From NCBI GenBank assembly GCA_043228905.1, contig JBHGNT010000015.1:18166001-18230000 (forward strand): a stretch of DNA of 64,000 nucleotides. Direction: 5' to 3'. This DNA is from Azolla caroliniana. Lineage: Eukaryota > Plantae > Polypodiophyta. The position numbers and the translations under genes were made by a program. Within the stretch, counting starts at the first letter, position 1. Every line of letters begins with the position of its first letter. Below the pieces are notes generated by a model. It had not been told where the DNA came from. It ran no database searches and was given only the letters and a program-made list of their open reading frames with translations. Positions 2,955 through 57,521 of this stretch are shown piece after piece.

Positions 2955-3959
2955 TGTTAGGAATATGTCCCTCCTATAGGTGCAGCCGACTGGTCGTGCC
3001 GAGTGCCGACAGTCGAAGACATGGAGAGTCAACTGGGGGAGTTGATAGTGGGAGAGTCCAAGTCGAAGACACGACCGACTAGTCGGGCCGACTGGATAGT
3101 CGACACTAGAGTCAACTAGTCGAATCCCATTGTCGTGAGGTAGGAAAGCTTCACATTAAAAGTCTACCATAAGATAAATACATAACTAAAATAAAAAGAA
3201 TCTTGATAGTGTTTTATACATAAGGATCTTATGAACAAAAACACTATGATAATATTATACATTATATGTAGAGGCAAATAAAGAAAAATATTGTATTACA
3301 TGAGGAAAAGAAGACTTGAACCGATAACCTCCACCTTATGAGCCTCAAACCTTACCATTTAGTCAACATTGATGATGCATATAAAAATATTTGTGTTGTT
3401 TTATTTGAACTAGCATTCTATAGTCTAAACAATGTAATGTACTACATGTGCAGCATATAGCACACATGCAAGGGCCACTCTACATGTGTGCCACATGGCC
3501 CACATGTAGAACCATCCCGTTCCTATAAAGGAGAAGGGAGTATAGTCACAGAGATATCAAGGAATCGAAATCGAAGAACTACATTGTATAAGATATCAAT
3601 CAAATAAAATAGAATTATATGGTAAGAAATATCATAAGAAAGGAGACAAGGAGGAAACTTCTTTATATACAATTTTTAAAGATAAGAGAAGAACTAGCTT
3701 GGCAGTTGTGGTGTTCAACTCACAACGAAAGGGCTCGAGGTTTGAGTATTTTTCTCATCGGAAGATAGATTCAGGGAAGATTGTGATCTACTATCAACAA
3801 AGAGAAGAGTGGTTACCGTGTGAGACAAAGTGCAAAGGTTCAACGACCCTCACAACTATTTTGTAACTCTTTCATCTAATAATTATAAATTTCTTACATT
3901 CCCTCAAATATCATGTTACATCCTATCTTGTCATATCTCATTGATCTTTGTTCACTACA
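2955..3959 (+). mobile_element. Probable LTR (solo or partial); right end uncertain
   Basis: Starts TGTTAGGAATATGTCCCTCC, like 62906 TGTTAGGTATTTTGTCCCTC. GTCGAC-rich U3, tRNA-like module at 3312-3368, TATAAA near 3524. No TSD found. Confidence 0.5.
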
Positions 3960-4362
3960 TATCTACTGTTTTCGTCTCTTCCGTCCAAAATCCCAACGAT
4001 TCCTTCCTCACTTTCACGTTACCTTCTATCAGAGCAACGGTATGCTTCTGGGCGAGCCACGCCCTGACACCATCGGTTAAATAACTATTATTGTTATAGT
4101 AGGAATGACAGTAGTAGTGGCTACATTTATAAATAGCCCATATATTGTACAAGTATAAATACACTTAAGGCAATCATATAGAATAAGAAGGTTGAATAGA
4201 ATAGGTGTGTGAGCCTCTGTTGTAGAGTGCGACAGATAAGAGAGAGTGTGTGAGCGTGAGAGAGCGGCAACAAAGTTCTGTGAACTTGCTAAGAACCCTA
4301 AGCGGGTTATCCTTGTGTGTATTAGAGAAGATTGTAATCCTTTTCTGTATTCTCTTGTGTAT

Positions 4363-8964: not shown

Positions 8965-11900
8965 TGTCGCGTTGTTACGCGTGTGCATATAGAAGGGGCG
9001 GGGCCACGGGGGTCTCGGATGAGAGAGGAAGGGATGGCGAGAAACCGACTCCAGACACGTCCCGAAGGCAATCGAACACGAGAGAGAGAGAGAGAGGAAA
9101 GAAAGCATGTGCGCGCGGCACCGACTCTTATGCATAGGAAACAAGGGGCTGTGCTCCTGACACCACCAAATATACCAATATGCACAAACAGTTACGAGTA
9201 TGTATATTACAAGGGAAAGAATACAACCCCGGCTTCGAGCCGGGTACGCTCAGAAGAAGTGAAGTTAACCCTAACAGCTTTGCCGCCATGGACGCGACGC
9301 CCGACTTCTCAAAAAGGAGGAGAAGAAGAAGAACAGGAAGTAACTAACCTTAGAAAACTCTTAACAAAAGACCCTCGACAAAAACGGTATACCCCTATGT
9401 CTCAAAATGGGCAACCCCCTACAAGAGACCCCTCCCTTCCTTTTATAACCCAAGGAGGGAGGAACGTTACAATGTGGGATCAATACTCCCCCTTTATTCT
9501 ATACACCATTTTCCTACTATACATGTGCACATGTTGCACATCACCGACTTGCCCTATTCCACCCCGATTTCACACTATAGCCGGAAATCTTCACAACATC
9601 CACCGCCACCAAACCGCACATCCACCGGTATGTGCCAAGGAAGAAAAAAGGGTGAGAGATTTCGGCGACGGTGATCAACCGGGTCTTTCGCCTTACCAAC
9701 ACTCGACCGTCTCGCCGGCTCCTTGCCAGCCCCGACCCGTCTCTCCATCCGATCCACCACGTCCTCCGCACGCACCTTCTTCTTCGACCGGCCTTCTCGA
9801 ACACCGTTACCGATTCGGTCTCTCTTCCTTCGCCCATGTTGTGCATGCCGCCCCTTTAGTCCTGCTTTGATTTCGGCCCTTGATGGTTACTCGCACTATC
9901 CTTCTTTAGCTCTGGGTGTGCCTTTCCAGCCCGGCACACTGCTTCATGCTCGCCTTGTTGGCGCTTCGGAAACCGTAACCAACCGGTAAAGGCTTCGCAC
10001 CCCGACTACCCCGTCTTGCCGGCTTTCGTTGTTGCCGGGTCCCGTTTCCCGCCGCCACCATCTTCCTCCTTGGTCTTACGTCACCTCGCTGGCTTGTACT
10101 GCCAGGGTCTCCGGATTCGGACTCCATAGGATAGGCTTCCTTTATCCTCATGATCTTGTCGGAAGGTCTATTTCGGTTTGTGGCCGTCTCACCGGCCCGA
10201 TGCCTCCTTGCCGCTCTGCCTTCATCAACTGATCACGTTCTCCTGCCGCCACCGTGGTTTCCTTTAGGGCTCACGCCGGCACTCGGGCCGACCACCGGAT
10301 CGGTGCGAGGATCTCTGTGGGACCTCCCCCTTTGCCGCCTCGGTTGCCCGCCTTGCCGCTGCCACCGTTATTCCCTCTTGGTCTCACGCCAGCTCTCGGG
10401 CCGACCGCCGGAGTGTCTTAGAACCGGTGTGTGTAAGGTCGCGGCAACATCGCTTACCGTTTTCCTCTCGCCTCTTTTGCTGGTCACGTTCACCTACCGC
10501 CACCGATCTCTCCTATAGGACTCACTGCGGCACTCAGGCCGATTGCCGGATTGGTGTGAGGATCTCCGCAAATCGCCCCTCCTTTCCCTTCGCGTTCCCG
10601 CAAACCGCCCCTCGCCGCCACCATTCATCACTCTAGGTCTCACGCCGGCTCTCGGGCCGACCGCCGGAGTCTCTAGAACCGGTGTGAAGGATCCTCCTCG
10701 GACTCATTGTATATCGAACCCTTATCCCGGGTCATCTTTCTCCGCAAGTTGAGAGGGTGGCTTGTTCCACACCCTCCCTCGTGGTACTGTCGTACCGTGT
10801 TCCCGGTCTCTTTGTAGGCCTGCATCTTCTTCCCTTCCGGATCGGTTTTCCAGAAGTCCGCCGCACCCGGTTCTTGTCCGGGTCCGACCGTTACTCCACA
10901 TTGTCGGGTCCCGTTCTCCTGCCGCCACCGTTAGTATCTTGGTCTTATGTCGGATCCGATGCCGATCGCCGGAGTCTCTAGCCCGGTGTGAGGTGACGCA
11001 TAGGACCGGTCTTCGTTCTCCGCTTCGTCGCTTGTACTTCTCCCTCCATCTCTCTTCTCTTCCGGACTTACGTTGCCACGCCATCCGAACTGCCGAAGTC
11101 TCCGGTCAAGATGTGGGGTAACTGATCGCATAACGACTCCTAATGACTCATCCCAGGCCACCGACCCTTTTAGTGGTGTCGGTGGATAGCATCTGCTCTA
11201 GGCTTGATTCTCCAATGTCCGGCTTTCAATTCCCGACCTTCGCCCGGTCGGTCTTTCTCCCCATGTAAAAGAGGGCGGCTCGTTCCGCACCCTCTCCCGT
11301 ATCGGCGCCTTCATGCTGATTCTATCCCTGATCGAACAATCCACGACCGGATCACGCTCCACCTGAATCGGAGCGCCGCGGGGTTCAGTCCCCGGTCAGG
11401 TCGTTTCTTGGTCTCTTCGTCGACCTTCTCCCATCCATCTTCATTGGCATCGTGCTAGGACTCCTCGATACTATCATCCATCTCCTCGGTCTCACGTGGG
11501 CATAAGGGCCCGAATGCTGAGATCTCTGGAATCGGTTCCGAGGGCTTTTGTCCGTTCTTTCCTCGTATCATCTCGCCGGTGATCCTCGGTCTCACGCCAC
11601 CGCCTTCCTCCTCTTGGGACTCACGTGGGCACTCAGGCCCAACTGCCATCATCTCGGGAGCAAGTGTGGGAAGACGCGAAGAATCGCCTATCCATTTTAT
11701 GCCCATGTATGTAGCCACCTGTTCCTCATGGTCGGTGGACGTTCCCTTACCGATCGCACAAGCCCCACCTGGGCTTGCTTCTCCAATGTCCGGAGCCTCG
11801 GGCCGTCGTGCCTGAAACCGCCGGTCCCAATGTTCCGATTCTACGATCTGTATCTCGTCCTTGTCCTCGGCCGTTCTATCTCTGCTATCCGAGAGGGCGT

Positions 11901-13426
11901 TTTGTTCCACACCCTCTCCCATGGTACCATCGTACCGATCTTCTGCTATCTCGTGGGGCAAGTTCGTCTCCTCGGCGTCGTCTCATGGCCTCGATCTTTC
12001 CTCTTCCTCAAGCATTGCCTCGAGAGCTGCGTACGCCTCCGCAATCCTGGCCCCGAAGCCAAGCCTTGCCGACTCTCTTTGTCGTTCGGCCTCTTCCCGC
12101 TGTGATGGCACGCCGTCGCACGCCTTCCTCTTAGCCTTCTCGGCTCACTCATCATCTAGCCGTTGGCATACCCTTCCAACCTTCGACCAATCCTCCGTAA
12201 GGCCATTCGCTCCGTGCTCGTCTTTGAGCTGAATCCCGATGGCCTCCCGTTCTGCTCGGTCGATTGACCTAACGAACAACAAGACTTTGTCCGCCCCCAC
12301 CAACCTTGCTCACGCTCCGGGAGCCGAGCAAGCCGCCGCTCGAACTCTCGGAACGCTTTCATTGCTCCCTGGTAGGCCTTCACCGATGCCACCCACTGGT
12401 CGAAGCCGCGTCATCCCCGGCTCTTCCATTGTCCTCTATATGCCTGTAGCAGCGCCTCTTCGAAGGCCTCCCACGAACTATGAGCTTCTCGGAGCTCCTT
12501 CACTTCTGCCTGCATACGGACGGAGACGACCCGACAGAAGAACTCTAGCCTCAATGCCTCGTCTACGTTTCGCTCCTCCATTTCTGCATTGTAGGCTTCC
12601 AAGTAGAATGGGACTTTGTCCCCGTTGAAACGGCCGACTCTTTCGACCACTCGCTCAACCGCTTGCTGCACCGTCTCTCTTCTTGTTGTTGCTCGTCCAA
12701 ACTCCCTGACCGCCTCGACGAAAAGTTGCCTGAAGTCGTCTTCTTCCAACTCCATTCTCCCTTGCCGAACTTCACATCAGGTTCACCAAAGATGTCGCGT
12801 TGTTAGGCGCGTGCGTGTAGAAGGGGCAGGGCCACAGGGGTCTTGAACGAGGGAGGAAGGGATGTCGAGAAACTGACTCCGGACACGTCCCGGAGGCAAC
12901 CAAACATTAGAGAGAGAGAGAGAGGAAAGAAAGCATGCGCGCATGACACCGACTCTTATGCACAGGAAACAAGGGGCTGTGCTCCCGACACCACCAAATA
13001 CACCAATATGCACAAACAGTTACGAGTATGTATATTACAAGGGAAAGAATACAACCCCAGCTTCGAGCCGGGTACGCTCAGAAGAAGCGAAGTTAACCCT
13101 AATAGCTTTGCTGCCATGGCCGTGGCGCCCAACTTCTCAAAAAGGAGAAGAAGAAAAAGAACAGGAAGTAGCTAACCCTAGGAAACTCTTAACAAAAGAC
13201 CCTCGACAAAAACGGTATACCCCTATGACTCAAAATGGGCAACCCCATACAAGAGACCCCTCCCTTCCTTTTATAGCCCAAGGAGAGAGGAATGTTACAA
13301 TGTGGGATCAATACTCCCCCTTTATTCTATACATTGTTTTCCTACTATACATGTGCACATGTTGCACACCACTGACTTGCCCTATTGCACCCCGGTTTCA
13401 CACTATAGCCGGAAATCTTCACGACA
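8965..13426 (-). mobile_element. Non-autonomous Gypsy-type LTR element (gag-like ORF only, no pol detected), tRNA-Trp PBS, 4-bp TSD ACGT
   Basis: 634-bp LTRs at 8965-9598 and 12793-13426. TSD ACGT at 8961-64 and 13427-30. Minus-strand PBS TGGTGAACCTGATGTGAA at 12771-12788. gag-like ORF 12411..12755 (VERVGRFNGDKVPFYLEAY..SWEAFEEALL). Degenerate GC-rich internal repeats at about 10240-10700. Confidence 0.9.
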
Positions 13427-21518: not shown

Positions 21519-24500
21519 GGACGCAAGGAAGAAATGTTTCTCTTTGCAATATCAGTAAACCCCTCCAGTATCAATAAAGAGGAGTCCACCATTCAACTTC
21601 CAGAGAAGTATCGTCATTATGCCGATGTGTTCGATAAAGTACGAGCTAATACGCTTCCTCACCATCGACCGTATGATTGCCCCATCGATTTACAACCGGG
21701 AAAAGAGCCACCATGAGGACCGATCTACAATTTGTCACCAACCGAGCTAGAAGTCCTTCAAGCCTATATAGAGGAGAATTTGGCAAATGGTTTCATTCGA
21801 CTTTCGAAATCTCCAACTGGCGCACCCATTTTCTTCGTCAAGAAAAAGGATGGATCACTTCGTCTCGTCGTAGATTACCGTCGTTTGAATAAAGTCACCA
21901 TCAGGAATAGGTATGCACTTCCTCTTACCTCAAGTCTTTTAGAACGGATCAATCGAGCAAGGTTCTTCACAAAGATCGACTTACGAGGAGCATATAACCT
22001 CGTATGGATCCGACCAAGAGATGAATGGAAGACTGCGTTTCGCACCAGATATGGGCACTTCGAGTATATGGTCATGCCATTCGGCCGCACTAATGTGCCA
22101 ACAGTCTTCCAACACATGGCAAATGATATATTCCAAGATCTATTGGATGATTTTTTGATTATCTATTTGGATGATCTACTATTTTATTTGAAGACCCAAG
22201 AAGAGCATGATTCTCATGTACTATTAGTACTAAAACGACTTCGAGAACATGGTCTTTATGCAAAACTGGAAAAATGTAGTTTTGGGTGCAACCAAGTAGA
22301 ATTTTTGGGCTATGTCATTTCCTCAGAAGGCATCTCCATGGATCCATCTAAGGTCAAAACGGTGGTTGAGTGGCAGACTTCTCGTTCGTTGCGAGATGTG
22401 CAATGCTTTTTAGGATTTGCCAATTTTTACCGCAAGTTCATACAGGATTACTCAAAGCTTGTTCTGCCTCTCACACAACTTACCAGGAAGGGAAAATCGT
22501 TCATTTGGTCTGAAGAAGTGGACATTTCTTTCGAAAGTCTGAAGAAGGCATTTGCATCAGCTCCTATTTTAGTTCATGTTGATCCAGAAAAACCATTCAT
22601 CATTGAAGCAGACGCGTCGGATTTCGCCTTGGGTAGCATTCTATCTCAACAAGCCGATGATGAAAAGCTACATCCTGTGGCTTTCTATTCACGCAAGTTT
22701 GACACCGCGAAAATCATTTATGAAATTCATGATAAGGAGCTATTAGCAATAGTGGACTCTTTTATGCAATGGAGGCATTTTCTAGATGGGTCTTCTCATC
22801 AAGTCATTGTATTTAGTGATCACAAAAACCTTGCCTACTTTCAGAATGCTCGTGTGTTAAATCGATGTCAAGCTTGGTGGGCCCAATTCCTCACTCGTTT
22901 CTACTTCAAAATTACATATCGTCTGGGAAAGAAACAAGGGAAGGCAAATGCATTATCACGGCGTTCGTATCTAACACCGCGTCCCAGCGAGCCGGCTTTC
23001 AATAACCAAAAGCAAGTAATCTTGGGACCGGCACGACTGCAAGAAACGCAGGTCTTCGGTATGCCCTTGGATTCCCACGTTATCGATACCATACGTGAGG
23101 ACTTGAAGATAGATGTTTTCACTCAAGCCATTCTAGCACAAATTGATCCCTCTCGAGCATCTTGTTCACAGTCGCAACAACCAGGTACGGAATATCGACA
23201 CTTCGAATGTCATGATGGATTATTAATCTTTAAGAAACTCTTGTATGTTCCTAATGGTACTTGTCACCTTCAAGTAGTCCATAACTGTCATGACACATAT
23301 ACAGTTGAGCATTTTGGTAGTACTAAAACACTAGATTTAGTACAACGATCCTTCTAGTGGCCCCATATGCGACAATTTGTCAATGATTTTGTTCGGACTT
23401 GTGATTCATGTTGCAAAGCAAAAATGCCAAGGCATCATCCATATGGTTTATTAGAACCATTACCAATTCCAAGCAAGCCATGGCAATCCATTGCCCTAGA
23501 TTTAATCACAAATCTTCCTGTCTATAAGGGATTCGATGTGATCTTAAAAGTAGTAGATCGATATACAAAGACGACCTATTTCCTACCATTTACTAAGCAA
23601 ATCTCTAGTGAAGAAACCCCTGAAATTTTCATGCGTGAAGTATGTCGGCATCATGGCCTTCTCGATAGTATCATCAGTGACCGTGGACCCCAGTTCCTCT
23701 CGAAGTTCTGGAAGCACCTCTTTCTAATGCGTAAGGTCACTTGTAACCTTTCCTCCGGATACAACCCGCACACAGACGGCCAAGCAGAACGAACAAATCA
23801 AACGCTGGAGCAGTATCTTTGGTGCTTTTTAAGCTATCATCAAGATGACTCGGCGGATATTCTCCACTTTGCCGAATTTGCGTATAATAACTCTGTCCAC
23901 TCATCGACAAAGGTGACACTATTTTATGCTTACACGGGATGTCATCCCCGGTGGTGTGTATTTGAAACCCCAGAGTTACGTACAAATCCTTGTGCAGAGG
24001 ATCGTTTGGAGCGGCTACGTAAGATACAAGCGGATTTATCTACTCATCTACAAGAAGCTCAACAAACATGCAAGGTTTACGTGGATCGTCATCGGCTTCC
24101 ATCCATTTTTGACATTGGAGATCGGGTGTGGCTACTACGACGACACATCAAGACTAGTCGCCCGTGCGAGAAGTTGGATTACCGGCGATTAGGTCCTTTC
24201 CATATTATCGGAAAAATTAATGATGTCACTTTTCGTCTCGATCTACCTCCACAACTTCGGATACATCCAGTATTTCATAGTTCTCTCCTCGAACCCTATC
24301 AAGACAGCACCATCCCAGGTTGTATTAAACAACCTCCACCCCCGATCGAGCTCGAAGATGGACTTGAGTACGAGGTCGCCGCCATCCTCGATTCCAAGAT
24401 TGTTCACAACAAGCTCTACTATTTAGTCGATTGGCTAGGATATAGTCCCAACGAACATACTTGGGAACCAATAGAGAATGTGACCAATGCTCGTTCTCTT

Positions 24501-25044
24501 CTTGAAGACTTCCATCGTCAATATCCAGACAAACCGGGTCCTCAATCCAAAACGACTCGTGACACTTGTCGTTTGAAAATGGGGATAGTGTCATGATATG
24601 GCAACACTTGAACCCATGACCTTATGTTACATGGGTCGAGCTCTTGACCATTAGACTATATGTTGTAATACAAAAGATATTATTTTCATTTAGGTTTTAC
24701 TATAGAAAATTGATTTATATTCCAGATTTCTCTGGAACATTCTAGAAACTTCAGGAATACTCCTGAGAACACTATAAAAGGAGGCACAAGGCATTATTTC
24801 GAACCAAATCGGTTCAACACTAGTCTTATGCCTCCTTGCTACTATTGTATATTCCCTTAACATAATATATATCATTTGTTATCCTCATTCTCTCTCTCTC
24901 TCTCGATCTCTTTCACTCACTCACTCTCTCCTTCTCTCGAGAGTTCTACACCTTAGTACTAATCCTCATCTTTTAGTACTAATTCCTTCTCTGTTTTAGT
25001 ACTGTTCCTGACAGTACTTCTCTGTTTTAGTATTGCTCTTGACA

Positions 25045-26994: not shown

Positions 26995-28915
26995 TGTCAA
27001 GATTCGAACTCTTGACATGACCATGTTATAATCGACTATTATGTGTTAACCACACACATCTAGCATATAATCATGTATATACTTCCTCATTGTAGGTTTT
27101 AGCTAGCATCATGTGGATAATTTCTCCCTTGTATTATTAACACTTGGCACATGCATGCGTACCTACTACCTACATGCTCTATTGTATCACATGCGTGCAA
27201 CAGGTATGCATGCCACTTAGTATAAATAGTTGAGTTCACCTTGAAGGAATTCAAGGTGAACAACACCAGTCATGGACATATCAATCTAGTATTCTCGTTT
27301 CGCCGATCCTCTCTCCTTGATCTTCATCTCTATCTTTATGCTCTTGTGTCATTCCATCATCGCTCCGTCGTAGTCTCATCATCCGTGCTCCGTCTTAGTC
27401 CACGCTTGGTGTGTCCGTGACAGTTTGTTCACCTTCCAACTAGAAGCATCACCTGTCTCCGTCGTCGCCCTTGCTTCTAGAGTTACCATCGTCACCGTAC
27501 CATCATCAACATCGCTTCATTGTCTCTAGTTTTTAGTTTCTCCTCATCATTGTCTCTATTTTTTAGTTTCTTTCCCATTCGTGTTCATGTTCTAGTTCCC
27601 GGTGAGGGCCGCACAAGGCCGCTCACTCCCGTTGGTGTTGGTGTTCCAGTTCCCGATGAGGGCCGCACAAGGCCACTCACTCCCGTTGGTGTTCGTGTTC
27701 TAGTTCCCGGTGAGGTCCGCACAAGGTTGCTCACTCTCGTTGGTGTTCGTGTTCCAGTTCCCGGTGAGGGCCGCATGGTCACTCACGCCCGTTCGTGTTC
27801 AAGTTCCTAGTGAGGGCCGCATGGTCGCTCACACACGTTCGTGTTCGAGTTCCCGATGAGGGCCGCATGGTCACTCACACCCGTTTGTATTCCTATTCCC
27901 GATGAGGGCCGCACATGGCCGCTCACTCTAGTTCATGTTCATGTTCCCGGTGAGGGACGCATGGTCGCTCACTCCCATTTGTGTTCCAGTCTCCGGTGAG
28001 GACCGACATGGTCGCTCATGCCCGTTGTTCATGTTCTAGTTCCTGGTGAGGACCGCGCATGGTCGATTACTCCCATTCGTGTTCTTGTTCCCAGTGAGGG
28101 CCACATGGTCACACACTCGTTCGTGTTCCATTTCTCAGTCAGGACAACATGGTTGCTCACGCTCGTTGGTGTTCATGTTCCAACTCTCAACGAGGACCGT
28201 TCCAGTTCCCGGCAAGGACCTCACATGGTTACTCATGCCCCTTGGTGTTCATGCTCCCCGTGAGGACCGCACATTGTCGCTCACACCCGTTGATATTTGT
28301 GTTCCAGTTCTAGGTGAGGACCACACATGGTCTCTCATGCCCGTTGGTGTTAAATACCTTGTCTTGTGGAAGGGTTACTCCTTGTCTAGGATTTACAAAA
28401 TACTTTGGAGGTGATCTAAGATTTTCATCAACAATATCCCCTTAAGCCAACAAACGATTTGGGAAGGCATCATTGAAGGGGGGATAATGTCAAGATTCGA
28501 ACTCTTGACATGACCATGTTATAATCGACTATTATGTGTTAACCACACACATCTAGCATATAATAATGTATATACTTCCTCATTGTAGGTTTTAGCTAGC
28601 ATCATGTGCATAATTTCTCCCTTGTATTATTAACACTTGGCACATGCATGCGTACCTACTACCTACATGCTCTATTGTATCACATGCGTGCAACAGGTAT
28701 GCATGCCACTTAGTATAAATAGTTGAGTTCACCTTGAAGGAATTCAAGGTGAACAACGCCAGTCATGGACATATCAATCTAGTATTCTCGTTTCGCCGAT
28801 CCTCTCTCCTTGATCTTCATCTCTATCTTTATGCTCTTGTGTCATTCCGTCATCGCTCCGTCGTAGTCTCATCATCTGTGCTCCGTCTTAGTCCACGCTT
28901 GGTGTGTCCGTGACA
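26995..28915 (+). mobile_element. Intact non-coding TRIM-like LTR element derived from a chromovirus, TSD GTCTT
   Basis: 428-bp LTRs at 26995-27422 and 28488-28915, about 5 differences by eye. TSD at 26990-94 and 28916-20. PPT GAAGGGGGGATAA before the 3' LTR. Internal degenerate 50-60-bp repeats. Chromodomain remnants YLVLWKGY and DFHQQYP at about 28350-28450. Confidence 0.93.
27575..28350. repeat. Degenerate tandem array (about 50-60-bp unit) inside the TRIM
   Basis: GTTCCCGGTGAGGGCCGCA..TGGTCGCTCAC..CCCGTT repeated more than 10 times; related repeats lie inverted at 41960-42245. Confidence 0.9.
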
Positions 28916-33988: not shown

Positions 33989-36900
33989 TGTCGTAGTGTA
34001 AATCGCACACTATGCGAAAATTGCATTTTTGGTCCCTCCGGATGGGACATGGAGACCCGGCAAGAACCGGATGAAGAGTACCCGGTGAGAACCGGACGAA
34101 GCAGACTGGCAAGAGCTAGATGAAAAAGGCCGGTGAGAGTCGGTGAGAAATGGACGAAGAGGACCCGATAAGAACCAGATAAAGAAGACCCGGTGAGAAC
34201 TGGATGAAGAGACATATTTACAAATAGGCGAGAATATTAAAAATAGTATTACATGAATAGGGCAAGATTCGAAGCTTGTACCTCCATGCACATAATGTGA
34301 AGCTTTACCATTACACTAACATATCATTTGTGTTAAAAAAGTAGACGTCCCACATAGAAAGGTAAGTGCACACTAGGATAAACTTTAGTTAGAAGAAAAC
34401 GCATGATAAAAGAAAAGGCTACACATGCATATCTAGCGTGCATGAACACTATAGTCGATAAGAACGCATCAAGTTAGAAAAAGCATGTTAGATAAAGCAT
34501 ATAGGTTATTGATAGAAAAGGCATGAAGTTGATAATTACCGAAAAAGCATGGAGTGCTAAGATTCTCTCATCACTATATAAGGATGGGAAGCACAATGTA
34601 ATAGGGGGTGTGAAATATTTGGAAATTAGATATATTTCTAAAAAAACACCAATTAATTATATTCGTGGGATTCACGAAATAAACTATACCCGTGGGATTC
34701 ACGAGGTTTCTATATTCTTCTCTTTCTATCTACATTCATATTATTATCTTTATATTGATTAATCTAAGACAATACACTCGTGGGATTCACGAGGTTTCTA
34801 TATCTCTTTCCTACAACCTATTTATATTCTAATTAGTCTCAAATTCTTCCTCCTCCTAGTCCAAAACCCCGGCAGTTCCCACTTGACTCACGCAACGATC
34901 CGGCGCCGAAAGGCACGACACCAGTGGTGAACCCAACATGAAGATGGGTGGCAAGGAGATGGAGAATCAACAAGAGGCGATGAACATGATGATGATGATG
35001 TTTGAGCGGATGCAACAAGAACAGCGTGCGATGTCGGAGATGAAGGCGGTAGTGGAGCGGCTTGTGCAACAAAATGGGGAATTCAACAGAAAGGATGTGT
35101 CACACTATCTACGTGAATACAAGGAGGAGATGATGTGATGTGGGATACCGGAAGGATTGCAAGTGATATCCTTCAATCAGGTAGTCACAGATGAGTTGCA
35201 AGAGAGCATATATGAGATACGGCAACAGAACCCAACGTGGGTGTCCTTTGAGAAAGCACTACTAGAGAAGTATGACTGCAAAAGAACAACGGCCAAGTAT
35301 AAGGTCAATGACTTGAGAGTGGCGAACACCACTTCAAGAACGGAAGAAGGTTTCGGAATACAAGTATCTGAAACATCGGGTGAAAAAGGGGTAACCATAA
35401 TCGATGCTTGCATGATCGAGGGAGATAAAGAGTGTGAGACGGACTTGATTGAGGAAGTCGCCACGAAAGATGACATTGAATTGGAGGTGGCTATGGACGA
35501 ATCAATGGCGGATGGCCGTATGAAGACTTTCCTAGTTCTAGAGACTTCGGCAGTTGCGATCGAAAGACAACATGAGACCGAAGAGATGGAAGGTGGCGGA
35601 GAGAAAACAAAGTTCGAATCTTATGCATACGATGGAGAGATAGCCGAGAAGGTGGCTATGGGTGAAACAACGAAGAACGATAATACCGAGGATTCCTGCC
35701 CACTAATCCTAGAGACTTTGGCAGTTGTGTCCGAGAAGCAACATGAGACCAGAGAGACGGGAGATGACGGCGAGGAAGGTAAAGTCAGAAGCCGGTGTCG
35801 TGAAGATTTTCGGCAATAGTGTGAAAATCCCATAAAACGTACGAAATCGAGTATGAATCACATAATATAATAATTGTGAAGATAACATTTTAAATAAATT
35901 TAATATCTAAGTACAAAATGATGGAGGTTTCAAATGCACTTTATTACACGAGAAACGGACAACTAAATGTCAAGATATGAGGGTATAAAGTTTGTGAAAG
36001 GAAAAGAGAAAATTGTGAGATATCCCACATAGGCATGACAAATACGGCTCTCATCATATATAAGGTAGAGCAAAAGATATTATCTTTGTGTCTATGTGTG
36101 GAGCATAGAGAGTTCAAGGTAACTTGAACTAAGAGTGGAGGTGGGCTAGCTACTCGTAAAGGGTTTTGGCCAACCAAAACCGGACCGGCGATGGAGCCGG
36201 TGATCCGGCGGCATCCGACGGCAAACCAGTATCCGGCGGTGAGACGACGGCGGCACCGGTATCCGGCGGCAACCAACGACGGCATCTGGCGAGGCACCAG
36301 TAACCAATGGCATCCGGCGAGGCACCGGTAACCGACGGCATCCGGCGACGGCACGGGTAACCGACGGCATCCGGCGACGGCACGGGTATTCGGCAGCAAC
36401 CAACGACGGCATCCGGCGAGGCACCAGTAACCAACGGCATCCGGCGAACCCGCGTCCGGCGACTAGATAAATAAATATATAAATATATATACATATTTAC
36501 ATATACAAGGAGGGCAAGTAAGGATTCGAACCTTGCACCTCCAAGTTAGGAGTCAATTGGCTTACCATTAAGCCATGCTATTTAGTTGAAATTATATTTC
36601 TATCATTGTACTTTTACATGTAAATTCTCATACATGAGAGCTAAAATGAGTGACATGGTTATCATGCACCACATGTAATACATAAGCGCCAAATGGCAAA
36701 CATGCAATTTATGCATGTCTTGTACCCTCACATGCATCATATGCATGAGAGCATCTATAAAAGAAGGGGGAGGAGAAAAAACAACGTTTTTTTTTATGAA
36801 AATTAAGAGGAAGAAATTCGTTATCAAATTGATCGTGTAACTTGTTTCTTAAATCTAAAGTTAAAAGTTCAATCAATCTCTCAATCGTGTAATCTCAACT

Positions 36901-39140
36901 TCTCTCTTTCCCAATCTATCTTAAGTACTTTCTCGCTAAAGCTTGTACCGACTTTGAATCCTTCCGGTTCAGAACCCCGGCGGTTCCGCCTCACGATCTG
37001 CGCGTAGTGACGGATCTTCACGACACCGGTTCAGATGGAAGATGATCTGTCCGAAATTCCGATCTAAACGAAAGCACGACAACGCGGAGGTCGGGACTAC
37101 GTTAGGAGAAGCGCGTAATAAGGAGCACGCGCTACAGCGCAAAATGGAGCATGCACTACGATGGAATACGAAGCATCCACTATGGCATAATACAACGCAA
37201 GCACTACGGCGAAAAATGAAGCGTGCATTACAGCCGCACGTGGACCCAAGAGCAAGCGCATATTCGGAGGTCGACATCGACGTGTGGGCAGACCCTACAG
37301 AAGGCAAGCGCGGAACGGAGAGAGACAACACGGCGAGATGCTCAAGACGAGGGAACGATCGAGCCAAAGGAGGAACGAAGGCGGCACGCGAGGGGCAAAA
37401 TCCGGCGTGTGATCGGAGTGACTGGGGACCCAATCGGAGGACCTACACGACGGACAATGGAAAGAAGTGTCGGAGGTCGAACTGGTCGAGGCCGGTGAAA
37501 ACAAGGAAAAGGAAACAAATCCGGATGGAAACCGATCGGTCGAAACTAACCCAAATGGGGGCTGAATCGGTAAAAACCGATCAATCAAGTCTGAATCGGC
37601 CAAATACGAATCGGAACGGAAGCCGATTCAACCGAAAGACGATCGGACGAGACCGATTTGGAAATAAGCTAATCCGAATCAACCAAAGGTCGAAGAGATC
37701 AAGGTTGATGATTACGAGGAAGAGGTCAAGCAGGTGCACTACAAAGGATGACAATGACCAAGTGGGCCAAGCAAATTTGAAGGGTGTTACCAAGGATGAG
37801 ATCTCGACAAAGGAGGGCTATAACATGAAGATTGTCAACTCTCACGCGAGATTATATGACAAAGGTGGACAAAGTGGGGAGCATGGCACATGCACAAGAC
37901 ATGAAGGGTTATACTCAAGAGGAGCACGAGGAGTCGTGACAACCGGCCATGGGCATGCAAACAATGAACGAAGACTATGGTGGATCGGATGGCAACAATG
38001 GTTGGGGTGGAAAGAATGGATATGCTCAAAATGGAGAGACAAAATCGACATAGCAAGAGAAACGGAGGGTACTACGAGTAAAGGAGAATTACGAGAACCG
38101 GTGACTGGGCGGAGCCGGCAACCGAAAACCTGCAACCGAACAAAATTGGCAACGAAACCAATCGGGCGGAGACTGGACGGAGGAGACTAACAATCACCAA
38201 CAACTTCGGCACATACCGGAGGATGTGCGGGTTTGGAAGGGGCGAGTGTCGTAGTGTAAATTGCACACTATGAGAAAATTGCATTTTTGGTCCCTCCGGA
38301 TGGGACATGGAGACCCGGTAAGAACCGGATGAAGAGTACCCGGTGAGACCCAGACGAAGCAGACTGGCAAGAGCCGGATGAAGAAGGCCGGTGAGAGTCA
38401 ATGAGAAACGGACGAAGAGGACCCAGTAAGAACCGGATAAAGAAGACTCGGTGAGAACCGGATGAAGAGACATATTTCCAAATAGGAGAGAATATTAAAA
38501 ATATTGTTACATGCATAGGGCAATATTCGAACCTTGTACCTCCATGTACATAATGTGAATCTTTACCATTACACTAACATATCATTAGTGTTAAAAACAT
38601 AGACGTCCCACATAGAAAGGTAAGTGCACACTAGGATAAACTTTAGTTAGAAGAAAACGCATGATAAAAGAAAAAGGTACACATGCACATCTAGCGTGCA
38701 TAAACACTATAGTCGATAAAAATGCATCAAGTTAGAAAAAGCATGAAGTTGATAATTACAAAAAAAGCATGGAGTGTTAAGACTCTCTCATCACTATATA
38801 AGGATGGGGAGCACAATGTAATAGGGGGTGTGAAATATTTGGAAATTAGATATATTTCTAAAAAAACACCAATTAATTATATTCGTGGGATTCACGAAAT
38901 AAACTATACCCATGGGATTCACAAGGTTTCTATATTCTTCTCTTTCTATCTACATTCATATTATTATCTTAATATTGATTATTCTAAGACAATACACTCG
39001 TGGGATTCACAAGGTTTCTATATCTCTTTCCTACAACCTATTTATATTCTAATTAGTCTCAAATTCTTCCTCCTCCTAGTCCAAAACCCCGGTGGTTCCC
39101 ACCGGACTCACGCAATGATCCGGCGCCGAAAGGCACAACA
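33989..39140 (+). mobile_element. Non-autonomous Gypsy-type LTR element (gag-like only), tRNA-Trp PBS, 4-bp TSD CCGT
   Basis: LTRs at 33989-34920 and 38247-39140. PBS TGGTGAACCCAACATGAA at 34925-34942 and PPT GGAAGGGGCGAG at 38235-46. gag-like ORFs 34938..35138 and 35157.. are homologous to 12411..12755. Pre-PPT GGCACATACCGG.GGATGTGC is shared with the 8965 element. Confidence 0.9.
35796..37025 (+). mobile_element. Solo LTR (1230 bp) nested in the 33989 element, TSD CCGG
   Basis: 12-bp terminal inverted repeats TGTCGTGAAGAT/ATCTTCACGACA. CCGG at 35792-95 and 37026-29. The 5' terminus resembles that of the 8965-element LTR. GC-rich GGCATCCGGCGA repeats at 36190-36460. Confidence 0.9.
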
Positions 39141-39493
39141 CCGTACACATCGATACATGTTAGAGCCCATACCGATATCTACCATTCGAACCATTGCTTC
39201 CATGCGACTTAACTCACATGCACTGCAATGTGAGATAAGGCGTTGGGGCACAAGTGATGAGAGTGGTCGGCTATACACACTTTGCCCTAAACAAGTTCGC
39301 GAGTCTGAGTATCACACTTTGATACAATGCTTTGCCTTTGATCATATTCGACCATGCTTTCCACATTTTTTCGACCGAGCCCAATCCTTGCATGAATTCC
39401 TCTCACAACCACAATGTGCACTCTCGATTGCAACATTCATTGGTAAAGTTCTTGAACATCAAGAGTCACTACTCACTTTTACACGTATCACAT

Positions 39494-40275
39494 TGTCATG
39501 CCTTTCAGCGCCGGATCGTTTGCGTGAGTCGGGTGGGAACCGCCAGGGTTTTGGACTAGGAGGAGGAAGAATTTGAGACCAGTTTAGTTATAAATATGAA
39601 TCGATTGTAAGAAAAAGAGATTGAAACTTGAGAATCCCACAAGTATATTGTATTAGATTAATCAATATTAAGATAATAATATGAATTTAGATTGAAAGAG
39701 AGATATATAGAAACCTCGTGAATCCCACGAGTATAGTTTATTTCGTGAATCCTACAAATATAATTTATTAATTGGTGTTTTTAAAAATATATCCAATTTC
39801 CAAAGTTTTCACACCCATCTTTATATAGTGATGAGAGAGTCGTAGCAATCCATGCTTTTTCTCTAACTATCAACTCCATGCTTTTTCTATCAATAGATTA
39901 TATGCGTTCTCTAACGTGCTTCTTCTAAAAGTGATCATGTTTTTTCTAACCTCGTGCGTTTTTATTGACTATAGTGTTTATGCACGCTAGATGTGCATGT
40001 GTAGCTTTTATCTATCATGCATTTTTCTTCTAAGTAAAGTTTTTTTCCTAGAAAATATGTGTGAAGTAACCTTTCTATGTGGGATATTTACTTTTTTAAG
40101 ACTCATGATGTGTTAGTGTAATGGTAAGCCTTCAAATTATTAACATGGAGGTACAAGGTTTGAATCTTGCACTATGCATGTAATACATATTTTGATATTT
40201 CTTTCTTTTTCTTCATATTTATTCAATCGGTTATTTTATACGTTTTTCACGTAATGTACGAAATAAACTACAACA
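39494..40275 (-). mobile_element. Solo LTR (782 bp) related to the 33989-element LTR, TSD ACAT
   Basis: The reverse complement aligns to most of 33989-34920. ACAT at 39490-93 and 40276-79. Confidence 0.88.
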
Positions 40276-40975: not shown

Positions 40976-42557
40976 TGTCACGAACACACCAACCGCGAAC
41001 TACGACAAAGCACGGATGATGGAGCTAAGAGCATGGAACTTAAGAAGCTGGGAATGACACAAGAGCATGAAGACAGAGATGAAGAAGGAGACAAGATGGG
41101 ATGAAACAAGAATACTAGATTGATGTGTCAATGACTGGAGTTGAATCCCTTGAAAGGGATCAAGGAGGTTACAAGTATTTATACTGTGAGTCAAAGTACA
41201 TGCATTAGAATATTCGGGAGAATATTCTAGAACCCTCTAGAACCTTCTAGTTCTAGAACTTTCTAAAAACTCCTAGAACTTGAAATAGATAATCTACTAA
41301 TAATCTACTAAGATATATATAGCATGACTATATATTTGGACATGTTGGTTAGAACATGTTGAGAATCAAGCTCAACATAGTGCAACGTGTGAACACACCT
41401 TTGAGAATCTATGTGCACTCAAAGGTCAAGAGTCATACCACTCTCTACACATTTAACTATGTGTCATAGAATCATATTCTATGACACATAACTAATGAGT
41501 TACATATTCCCCATGACTATGAGTCTTCACATTCCCCAAGAGAGAGAGTGGTTGTTGTAAAGTTAATGAAGAGAGAGGGTGACTCTATATAAAGCACCCT
41601 CATACTTCATACTAAGTCGGTTGTGACTCCTTATTATGCTACATTTTGTAATTCTTATTCTACTTGTGAAATATACACCTTCTTCTTGAGTATTCCTTTT
41701 TCTATCTATCTTGTGTTCTCTCATCTCTCCTCTAATTCCTCTCACACATACACATAACACACATCTCTTCTGCTACACAAGAATCATACCCAATTCTTTA
41801 CAGAACACAACACTTGACTATATATAAGAGGTTAAGAGTTCAAATCTTGACATGACTGTTGTCATGTCTGTGACATTATCCTCCCCTTTATGGCCGCCTT
41901 TTCGAAAGCACAGTGTAGGGGTGAACAGAAAGTGGTGGGCATGAGAAACCATGTGTTGTGCTCACTAGAAACACGAACACCAACAGACATGAGTGACCAT
42001 GTGTGGTCCTCATCAGGAACATGAACGGGCAGTGACTGACCATGCGGTCCTCACCAAGAACTGGAACATGAACAGGAGTGAGCGACCACATAGACATTAT
42101 CCTCCCCTTTACGGATGCCTTTTCGAAAGCACGGTGTAGGGGTGAACAGAAAGTGGTGGGCATGAGAAACCATGTGTTGTGCTCACTAAAAACACGAACA
42201 CCAACGGACATGAGCGACCATGTGCGGTCCTCATCGGGAACATGATCGGGACCATCTGTCAATGACTAGAGTTGAATCCCTTGAAAGGGATCAAGGAGGT
42301 TACAAGTATTTATATACTGTGAGTCAAAGTACATGCATTAGAATATTCAGGAGAATATTCTAGAACCCTCTAGAACCTTCTAGTTCTAGAACTTTCTAAA
42401 AACTCCTAGAACTTGAAATAGATAATCTACTAATAATCTACTAAGATATATATAATATGACTATATATTTGGACGTGTTGGTTAGAACACAACACTTGAC
42501 TATATATAAGAGGTTAAGAGTTCAAACCTTGACATGATTGTTGTCATCTCTGTGACA
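40976..42557 (-). mobile_element. TRIM-like element related to 26995-28915, TSD GTACT; 5' LTR partly deleted; carries a nested solo LTR
   Basis: TSD at 40971-75 and 42558-62. 3' LTR 40976-41875 with PPT at 41876-41888. 5' LTR remnant at about 42257-42557. Internal repeats are related to the 27575 array and the PPT region is duplicated near 42095. Confidence 0.88.
41357..41802 (+). mobile_element. Solo copia LTR (446 bp), TSD GAACA
   Basis: Inverse of 4363-4814. GAACA at 41352-56 and 41803-07. Confidence 0.93.
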
Positions 42558-56365: not shown

Positions 56366-56684
56366 TGCTTAACTCTGCTCTTAATCTTGATTAGTCACCC
56401 TTAATCGCCCTCATTAATCATGGTTTGATCCTAATACCTCCACCCCGCGGTGCTTAACACTCCTCTCAATCTTGATTAGCCGCCCCTTAGTCGCATTCAT
56501 TAATCATGACTCGGTCCTAATATCTCCATCGCTAGGGCTTAACACTGTTCTTAATCTTGATTAGCGGCGCGCTTAATCGCCCTCACTAATCATGATTCGG
56601 TCCTAATGCCTTGAGACCGCTGGTGTGCTTAGCAATGCTCTTAATCTTGATTAGCGGCCCTTAATCGCCGTCATTAATCTCCAG
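56366..56684. repeat. Four degenerate ~86-bp tandem repeats immediately upstream of the ATG
   Basis: GCTTAAC..CT(T/C)AATCTTGATTAG..CTTA(A/G)TCGC..TCA(T/C)TAATC at about 56366, 56451, 56537 and 56626. Confidence 0.9.
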
Positions 56685-56693
56685 GCTCTGCAC

Positions 56694-57521
56694 ATGATGG
56701 CCGGGCGGCTTCTGCAGTTCCATCCTTCTTCCTCCTCCTCCTCCTCCGCGGAAGCTCACAATTCCGCCGCCGCTTTATCTAGCTACGCCGCCGCCATTCA
56801 ACTCGCCGCCGCCGCCGCCCACCATCGCCAAGCCCCGCCTGATCATCATTACCGGAGCGGCATCTCCTCTGCTTTCTCTGTCATCGGTAATCCCGGCACC
56901 GCCGGAGGCGGCGACGATTTCTCGGCGGCTCAGCTGCTGGCCGGACCTTCCGCCGCCGACGACGCCGCCGCCCGACCGGCGGCGCCGGTAGTATCACGGG
57001 CAGCCGCCAGTCGACGAGGGAAGAAGCGCCAGAACAAGCCGCCGCAGCGAGGCCTCGGCGTGGCGCAGCTCGAGAAGATTCGGATCGAAGAGCAGAGGAG
57101 AGCTTCCGCCGCCGCTCTTCATCACCTCAATGCCCGAAGCAGCGGCGGCGGCGGCGGCGGAGCTTCACCTCTGTTAATCAATCAATCGCCTCCTCCTCTG
57201 CTCCCTCCTCCCATGTACACTAATTATCATCCTAATCCTAATCCTAATCCTAATCCTCATCCTAATTTTAAGCATCAACACAATCCTAGAGATAATGACC
57301 CCGCCCATCGCAGCCCTAATGCTGCTGCAGTGGACATGATTAACGCTAATCCTAATACCAGCATTATTAATCCAGTCTGGCTTTCCGCATCCAAATTATT
57401 TATTGAAGGCGCCAGCGGCAGCAGAGCGCATGCTAATAAGTCCGACGATGGAACTGATATAATTAATCCCGATGGCAGTTATATGAAATTGCTCGGCTTC
57501 CCGCGTCCAGATCTAAGCCTG
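56694..57521 (+). CDS. SPL/NZZ-like: SPEAR gene exon 1 (basic region and SPL motif)
   Basis: PQRGLGVAQLEKIRIEEQ; donor CTG|GTAAGG at 57522. Confidence 0.9.

What the first reader, a model, noticed from the sequence alone, without database searches (positions are those of the whole stretch)
24601..24660. Antisense tRNA-like A-box/B-box module recurs in the U3 of at least six different LTR types
Seen: a ~60-nt segment reads like a tRNA body on the strand opposite to the element, always upstream of the LTR TATA box. Instances: 24601-60 (-) TAGTCTAATGGTCAAGA..AAGGTCATGGGTTCAAGT; 3312-68 (-) TGACTAAATGGTAAGG..CTCATAA..GGAGGTTATCGGTTCAAGTC; 26995-27064 and 28488-28557 (-) TAGATGTGTGTGGTTAA..GAGTTCGAATC; 34260-321 and 38518-79 (-) TAGTGTAATGGTAAAG..GGAGGTACAAG(C/G)TTCGAAT; 36512-78 (-) TGGCTTAATGGTAAG..CTCCTAA..GGAGGTGCAAGGTTCGAATCC; 40111-70 (+, minus-strand LTR); 42470-534 (+, minus-strand LTR). 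Box motifs and their spacing persist while the stems and intervening sequence diverge. Several copies have a T4-5 run just downstream. Established: A/B boxes bind TFIIIC, and Cassandra TRIMs carry Pol III-transcribed 5S domains in their LTRs. Inference: a tRNA-derived Pol III or TFIIIC cassette shared by chromoviral, non-chromoviral and TRIM LTRs, possibly acting as an insulator or anti-silencing element, or making an antisense RNA. I do not know of a description of this, but could not search.
Basis: partly seen in the sequence, partly recalled or inferred. Interest (0 to 1): 0.85.

Follow-up and report, generated by a model that had tools for sequence, protein, structure and literature searches.

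The report
tRNA promoter boxes in moss LTRs
Two distantly related lineages of protein-coding jumping genes in a moss-like genome carry, in their end repeats just upstream of the main promoter and usually backwards, a decayed tRNA piece whose two promoter boxes and spacing are kept while the rest has drifted, likely as a docking site for the cell's tRNA-gene factor TFIIIC that would help keep the element active.

Summary
Observation confirmed: all nine cited segments exist and lie antisense in U3. The six with tRNA-like spacing are the only such hits in the window (shuffles 0-1). One strict pattern matches 3,294 times genome-wide against 3 for the control. The 'six LTR types' collapse into two Ty3/Gypsy lineages, self-priming Tcn1 chromoviruses (plus non-coding derivatives) and a subset of Phygy; 0 of 17 Copia LTRs carry it. 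Across 11 near-saturated Tcn1 LTR types the A-box core (0.76), B box (0.83) and 42-44-nt spacing are kept, the spacer is not (0.51), and tRNA stems are lost, so replicating lineages select it. A true SINE shares its 5' end with the Phygy module. Best reading: a captured tRNA/SINE head kept as a TFIIIC-type DNA site beside the Pol II promoter; function untested. Closest known: Helenus TRIMs (sense, non-coding). This scan noted tRNA relics in LTRs of other genomes, not this module. New variant of a known kind.

The parts
24589..25044 (+). 3' LTR of a Tcn1-clade chromovirus (TG..CA, PPT just before it)
   Evidence: 4709 first-look candidates in the genome
24604..24658 (-). tRNA-like module: A box from 24658, B box 24614-24604, spacing 43; this copy has a decayed B box (family mostly GGTTCGAGTC)
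24773..24779 (+). Pol II TATA box of the LTR (inferred)
   Evidence: sequence; same distance from the module in family copies
24806..24817 (+). Predicted transcript start, complementary to the family's PBS (Tf1-type self-priming, inferred)
   Evidence: Tcn1 self-priming 83% in PMC6317226 supplement
21717..24596 (+). pol of the host chromovirus: RT, RNase H, integrase, SH3, chromodomain; interrupted by stops
3131..4069 (+). Phygy-type solo LTR, 4-bp TSD CCAT
3312..3365 (-). Module, spacing 42, score 22.5
26995..28915 (+). Non-coding Tcn1 derivative, 1921 bp, 428-bp LTRs 98.8% identical, 5-bp TSD, self-priming-type PBS, internal tandem repeats
27000..27062 (-). Degenerate module at the very start of the 5' LTR (spacing 51)
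28493..28555 (-). Same module in the 3' LTR
33989..39140 (+). Phygy-type element (LTRs 33989-34920 and 38247-39140, TSD CCGT, tRNA-Trp-type PBS), inserted in a LINE RT
34265..34318 (-). Module, spacing 42
38523..38576 (-). Module, spacing 42
35796..37025 (+). Nested Phygy-type solo LTR, TSD CCGG
36522..36575 (-). Best-kept module in the window, score 32.9
39494..40260 (-). 5'-truncated Phygy-type LTR, 79% identical to the 33989 LTR
40114..40167 (+). Module, spacing 42; its 5' leader and A box match a free SINE head at 24 of 28 positions
42254..42557 (-). LTR of a second non-coding Tcn1 derivative
42470..42529 (+). Weakest, degenerate module (spacing 48, score 13.8)

Best explanation
The segment is a decayed tRNA-gene head sitting in the U3 of Tcn1 and of some Phygy retrotransposons, whose A box, B box and tRNA-gene spacing are kept across diverged families while the stems are lost; it was likely captured from tRNA-derived SINE heads and is likely kept as a DNA docking site for TFIIIC that would hold the AT-rich stretch beside the element's Pol II TATA box open. 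Shown: presence, lineage distribution, box-over-spacer conservation, loss of stems, tolerance of inversion and duplication, neutral decay of inserted copies. Inferred: capture from a SINE (once or several times); selection acting on the replicating master lineages, not on each inserted copy; TFIIIC binding (type-2 promoter logic, established knowledge); loading of TFIIIB/TBP on the side facing the TATA box; a gain in LTR promoter activity or resistance to silencing. A short Pol III transcript may be a by-product.
For: Eleven non-redundant Tcn1 LTR types (12 of 24 kept, mean identity 0.64 against 0.61 for shuffles; one dropped for its longer spacer): A-core 0.76, variable-loop positions 0.85, B box 0.83, spacer 0.51; anchored-shuffle null 0.46, 0.46, 0.61, maxima 0.55, 0.58, 0.70 in 300 runs. 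The top shared 8-mer is the antisense B box, 12 of 12, 0.9 expected. Spacing is 42-44 in 10 of 12 (41-47 in the 14 tRNAs) while the distance to the LTR end varies from 5 to 62 nt. Watson-Crick pairing in D, anticodon and T stems is 0.43, 0.24, 0.38 in 24 modules against 0.77, 0.61, 0.93 in tRNAs. The module is the best alignable block between otherwise barely alignable Phygy LTRs (E 7.7e-8 to 0.008). Present in intact young elements of both lineages (L327, L320: open ORFs, LTRs 99.8% identical) and in 19 of 22 usable metagenome relatives at 61-92% protein identity. Works either way round by distribution: sense in U3 of one Phygy family; two antisense plus one sense copy flanking the TATA box in another. 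Upstream 30 nt are 77-90% AT in 11 of 12. SINE with 12-20-bp TSDs and A tails in 4 of 6 copies shares leader plus A box with two Phygy modules (24/28 and 22/28).
Against: No binding, transcription or chromatin data were available. Many successful elements lack it: 0 of 17 Copia LTRs, 3 of 8 Phygy LTRs, and 28 of 30 Phygy 5' LTRs picked by PBS pattern have no tRNA-spaced module. B-box CpG is not protected in copies; TTTGA variants number 576, about as many as TTCAA variants (18 of the first 100 listed of 3,294). Two of 12 Tcn1 representatives have the C56T change and 4 of 12 score only at 3-8 of 100 shuffles. Strict spacing and the conserved variable-loop GTC are tighter than TFIIIC is known to need (recalled), which leaves room for an RNA-level role. 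Two of the 11 Tcn1 types and most of the 8 Phygy modules were first found through the motif, so those figures are partly circular. AT-richness upstream is common in these U3 regions anyway.
Confidence: 0.58

Rival explanations
1. The useful product is a Pol III RNA running antisense out of U3 (about 90-140 nt), which regulates the element, for example over the PPT-U3 junction, or feeds small-RNA pathways.
For: Both boxes kept at tRNA spacing; 64 of 65 LTR-assigned loci antisense (the one exception, L374, is a misassignment); T4 within about 50 nt in 6 of 8 Phygy modules.
Against: The transcribed body is not conserved; no terminator inside 8 of 12 Tcn1 LTR types; sense-oriented modules exist; the 64 loci come from roughly a dozen families, not 64 events.
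Confidence: 0.14
2. The U3 end of the genomic RNA is complementary to the D loop and T arm of a host tRNA and anneals to it, as the 3' half of the Ty3 bipartite primer-binding site does.
For: Explains antisense orientation, U3 position, loss of stems and the conserved variable loop plus 5' T-arm strand; precedent in PMC5371799 (passages).
Against: Tcn1 elements are predicted to self-prime. Phygy modules do not match their primer tRNA-Trp: it is the best match for 0 of 8 and the longest identity is 7-9 nt. No isotype is consistently best among 30 tRNA sequences and 2 SINE-like heads (the set lacks several isotypes). Sense modules cannot anneal.
Confidence: 0.1
3. A neutral relic of an old SINE or tRNA insertion, passively inherited with the LTR.
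For: Inserted copies decay neutrally; within one family the boxes are no better kept than the rest of the LTR; the module is absent from many families; SINE donor present.
Against: Between families the spacer lying between two in-register boxes is near saturation (0.51, null 0.46) while the boxes are not; no indels accumulate between the boxes although flanks vary widely.
Confidence: 0.13
4. Two ordinary Pol II transcription-factor sites or an integrase/RT signal that only resemble tRNA boxes.
For: Rfam and ARAGORN see no tRNA; six of nine instances score under 5 bits on the tRNA HMM.
Against: A box, variable loop, B box and spacing all match tRNA genes together; direct likeness to a SINE head; distance to the LTR end is free.
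Confidence: 0.05

Closest known systems
Helenus / TRIMp3 (Kojima 2024, PMC10886601; main text parts 1-4 of 6, keyword passages and supplement passages read)
   Same: tRNA-derived sequence inside LTRs, conserved at boxes A and B, not a working tRNA, proposed to come from a SINE head; function untested there too.
   Different: Helenus are non-coding TRIMs of 311-1263 bp; the LTR sequences I saw in the supplement (Selaginella and two wasp families) carry the tRNA piece in sense, followed by a T run, as the presumed promoter of the element. Here it is in autonomous 5.5-7.5-kb elements that keep a Pol II TATA box, in U3, mostly antisense. The main text has no hit for moss, Physcomit-, antisense or opposite, and argues that autonomous partners are unlikely to share a long LTR stretch with such TRIMs. 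It does say that 'not a few' Repbase LTRs resemble part of a tRNA.
Cassandra and Ajax TRIMs (as described in PMC10886601; Cassandra papers seen only as search listings)
   Same: Pol III internal promoter captured in an LTR and conserved as promoter boxes.
   Different: 5S-derived (A, IE, C boxes), non-coding, and in Cassandra it drives the element's own transcript.
Ty3 bipartite primer-binding site (PMC5371799, passages)
   Same: U3 sequence complementary to tRNA T and D arms.
   Different: Specific to the primer tRNA; here no specific isotype, self-priming hosts, and sense copies.
Yeast ETC sites, tRNA-gene barriers and SINE-borne TFIIIC sites (recalled, no paper read)
   Same: B-box-dependent TFIIIC sites acting on chromatin and neighbouring Pol II promoters.
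   Different: ETC sites lack an A box; none is known to me as a fixed part of an autonomous plant LTR promoter.
Host lineages Tcn1 and Phygy (PMC6317226 passages and supplement rows; PMC2864245 passages)
   Same: Chromodomain, 5-bp TSD and self-priming for Tcn1; 4-bp NCGN TSD and tRNA-Trp PBS for Phygy.
   Different: The passages read do not mention a tRNA-like U3 module.

Membership tests
Helenus / TRIMp3 | tRNA-derived sequence in the LTR with A and B boxes conserved | tested here: met
Helenus / TRIMp3 | Non-autonomous TRIM, about 0.3-1.3 kb | tested here: not met
   Intact coding carriers L327 and L320; the window's complete non-coding carrier is 1921 bp
Helenus / TRIMp3 | Pol III boxes oriented to transcribe the element | tested here: not met
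   64 of 65 LTR-assigned loci antisense; a minority family is sense but has a T run 23 nt after the B box and a TATA box downstream
Helenus / TRIMp3 | Actual Pol III transcription | not testable with these tools
   Only assembled contigs were available
Functional tRNA gene | Cloverleaf, passes ARAGORN or Rfam RF00005 | tested here: not met
SINE insertion | Own TSD, body and A-rich tail at each copy | tested here: not met
   Modules are head-only and travel with the LTR; the free SINE of this genome has TSDs and tails
Type-2 Pol III promoter | A box and B box at tRNA-gene spacing | tested here: met
   6 of 9 window instances at 42-43; 10 of 12 Tcn1 types at 42-44
Type-2 Pol III promoter | TFIIIC binding | not testable with these tools
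   needs ChIP or EMSA
Ty3-type bipartite PBS | Extended complementarity to the primer tRNA in U3 | tested here: not met
   7-9 nt to tRNA-Trp, never best match
Tcn1 chromovirus (host) | Chromodomain, 5-bp TSD, self-priming PBS | tested here: met
Tcn1 chromovirus (host) | Placement in an RT-RH-INT tree | not tested
   No reference sequences in session; assignment rests on structural marks
Phygy (host) | 4-bp NCGN TSD, tRNA-Trp PBS, no chromodomain | tested here: met
   TSDs CCGT, CCGG (CCAT deviates); PBS matches the genome's tRNA-Trp 3' end; no chromodomain in L320 pol
Phygy (host) | Placement in an RT-RH-INT tree | not tested
   as above

The most novel reading that the evidence does not exclude
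Autonomous moss LTR retrotransposons have repeatedly recruited the host's Pol III factor TFIIIC as a built-in part of their Pol II promoter: a portable, orientation-tolerant tRNA-gene mimic that acts as a boundary or anti-silencing device, acquired separately by Tcn1 and Phygy and even doubled or placed on both sides of the TATA box, and so scattering thousands of potential TFIIIC sites through the genome.
Probability: 0.4. Interest if true: 0.8.

Novelty: new variant of a known kind. Interest (0 to 1): 0.6.

Why it matters
Pol III boxes in LTRs were described as the promoter of tiny non-coding TRIMs. Here they are a selected part of full-size coding elements that already have a Pol II promoter, so they must do something else. 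If TFIIIC binds them, this is a simple, testable way for a retrotransposon to resist silencing, open to point mutants in a transformable moss, and it would put thousands of candidate TFIIIC sites (at least 3,294 exact matches to one pattern) in the genome. It also warns that tRNA-box scans in mosses are dominated by LTR modules.

Tried and rejected
ARAGORN and Rfam: no tRNA hit. Within-family conservation in 29 close copies: flat, uninformative. Isotype assignment against 30 tRNA sequences and 2 SINE-like heads: no consistent winner (that script stopped late, after printing these results). Primer-tRNA anchor: not supported. CpG protection: not seen. Common RNA fold: none; z from +1.7 to -3.0 with different structures. 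Public reads: only contigs, the best holder probably DNA, the other three with small shares, so nothing on strand or expression. Viral contigs: no relative. Absence in distant Gypsy relatives (0 of 29 usable own-genome SH3 hits at 25-46% identity; 0 of 25 metagenome loci at 54% or less scoring above 12) is weak evidence, because the LTR was not located in most of them; L220 at 52% has a weak version. Twelve of 59 metagenome loci were dropped as too short downstream. One 'other' Gypsy LTR scored 16.9 at 70-nt spacing with uncertain orientation and was not counted. No covariance model was built because the stems are not conserved. Literature: nine searches found no description of this module in moss LTRs; the library lacks most subscription papers and Repbase notes, and I saw only passages of the supplements of PMC10886601 and PMC6317226.

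Full report
Setting. The window is a nest of retrotransposons in a 523-Mb genome. Its Tcn1- and Phygy-type elements point to a moss (inference from PMC6317226, passages and supplement rows). The finding lies at the start of the 3' LTR (24589-25044) of a chromovirus with RT, RNase H, integrase and chromodomain.

Observation. All nine segments are present. I trained an HMM and an A/B-box matrix only on 14 tRNA genes of this genome; some of these are probably organellar. The HMM gives 20.0, 16.8 and 12.8 bits to three instances, with no shuffled or reversed hit at 9 bits in 864 kb; the other six stay under 5 bits. The matrix finds exactly six hits of 19 or more at tRNA spacing in the window, all cited instances, against 0-1 in five shuffles; the other three have spacings of 51, 51 and 48. 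Genome-wide, one A+B pattern matches 3,294 times against 3 for the reversed control, and a second, more generic one 1,791 against 0, most listed matches being such modules and not tRNAs. ARAGORN and Rfam call no tRNA.

Who carries it. Of 33 LTRs from 800 kb of sampled DNA and the window, the antisense module is in 5 of 5 self-priming Tcn1-type LTRs, 5 of 8 Phygy-type, 0 of 17 Copia and none clearly in 3 others. Tcn1 identity rests on the chromodomain, 5-bp TSD and a PBS complementary to the predicted transcript start. Phygy identity rests on 4-bp TSDs and a PBS matching the genome's tRNA-Trp. No tree was built. The two 'TRIMs' are non-coding Tcn1 derivatives. So six LTR types are two lineages, whose RTs are about 26% identical. 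In Phygy it is a minority trait: 2 of 30 LTRs picked by a PBS pattern with 4,654 matches carry it, though that pattern misses some carrier families. Intact young elements of both lineages carry it. In metagenome contigs 19 of 22 usable relatives at 61-92% protein identity have it near the LTR start; 12 of 59 loci were too short.

Selection. Within one family the boxes are no better kept than the rest, the B-box CpG decays like other CpGs, and the damaging TTTGA variant (576) is about as common as the tolerated TTCAA (18 of the first 100 listed of 3,294). Inserted copies therefore decay neutrally. Between families the picture differs. Twelve of 24 Tcn1 LTRs remain after a 72% identity filter, at 0.64 mean identity against 0.61 for shuffles. 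Their most shared 8-mer is the antisense B box (12 of 12, 0.9 expected); the matrix beats all 100 shuffles in 8 and all but 3-8 in 4. In the 11 with normal spacing, conservation is 0.76 for the A core, 0.85 for the variable-loop positions, 0.83 for the B box and 0.51 for the spacer; the anchored null is 0.46, 0.46 and 0.61. The A core and variable loop were not used for anchoring, but two of the 11 types were first found through the motif. Spacing stays at 42-44 in 10 of 12 while the distance to the LTR end ranges over 5-62 nt. Stem pairing has fallen to 0.24-0.43 against 0.61-0.93 in tRNAs, and no common fold appears. Among Phygy LTRs that otherwise barely align, the module is the best shared block. 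This is the signature of a promoter-type DNA element kept in the replicating lineages.

Orientation and terminators. Of 77 loci, 64 are antisense in Tcn1 or Phygy LTRs, 12 unassigned and one misassigned; they represent roughly a dozen families. Two exceptions matter. A Phygy family of about 211 candidates has a related module in sense in U3, with PPT or PBS on the same strand in 6 of 15 loci read. Another has two antisense modules before the TATA box and one sense module after it. T runs are not conserved in Tcn1.

Origin. No tRNA isotype is consistently closest. A free SINE with TSDs and A tails in 4 of 6 copies shares its leader and A box with the 40114 and 38576 modules (24 and 22 of 28); the direction of transfer is not shown, and the middle parts differ. 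The modules are head-only, without tail or TSD, which suggests capture by template switching (inference). One or several origins cannot be told apart here.

Mechanism. Most likely (0.58) TFIIIC binds the boxes and keeps the AT-rich stretch beside the Pol II TATA box open, helping active copies to be transcribed; binding and effect are inferred. Rivals are a regulatory antisense Pol III RNA (0.14), a neutral relic (0.13), a Ty3-like tRNA anchor on the genomic RNA (0.10; PMC5371799 passages) and convergent motifs (0.05). The tight spacing and the conserved GTC before the T arm are not fully explained by the best model.

Known versus new. Helenus (PMC10886601; parts 1-4 of 6, passages and supplement passages) is the closest: tRNA boxes in LTRs, but in non-coding TRIMs and, in the sequences I saw, in sense. 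This module fails those two membership features. PMC2864245 and PMC13570524 (passages) add nothing on it. Nine searches found no description for moss LTRs; subscription papers and Repbase notes were not covered. Earlier notes of this scan report tRNA relics in LTR elements of other genomes but nothing for this sequence. Verdict: real, selected, a new variant of a known kind, interest 0.6.

Noticed in passing
L340-L359 (e.g. L068:6095-6292): A roughly 210-bp repeat with two convergent tRNA-like heads, nearly always inside (GA)n microsatellites; 2612 first-look candidates. The first head keeps its acceptor-stem complementarity.
   Followed up: partly
L361, L362, L368, L371, L372, L386: A tRNA-derived SINE family of about 330-480 bp with 12-20-bp TSDs and A tails in 4 of 6 copies.
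   Followed up: partly
L320:1006-1873, L334, L328: Young Phygy family whose LTR has two tandem antisense modules before the TATA box and one sense module after it.
   Followed up: partly
window 41357-41810: A Copia solo LTR is inserted between the A and B boxes of the second LTR of the 42254 element; a single case, so no targeting claim.
   Followed up: no
window 26995-27070 (-): The degenerate module has re-formed three hairpins with the D-like and T-like loops exposed (z -3.0), unlike other families.
   Followed up: no
window 39143-39240: Palindromic MITE-like piece holding a B-box-like GGTTCGAAT; a relative lies at L007:2025-2138.
   Followed up: no
window 8965-13426 (-): Phygy-type element without the module, sharing its first 31 LTR bases with the module-bearing solo LTR at 35796.
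   Followed up: partly
window 56655-57530 (+): Open frame with a weak NOZZLE (PF08744) match, E 4.8e-5, just over the cut-off.
   Followed up: no
L131-L133 (G000:C18:9000001-9025000): Tandem array of about 21 units of 1191 bp, each with tRNA-Ala(AGC) and tRNA-Ala(TGC) genes.
   Followed up: no
L336, L373: Further A/B modules in repeats that I could not assign to an LTR.
   Followed up: no
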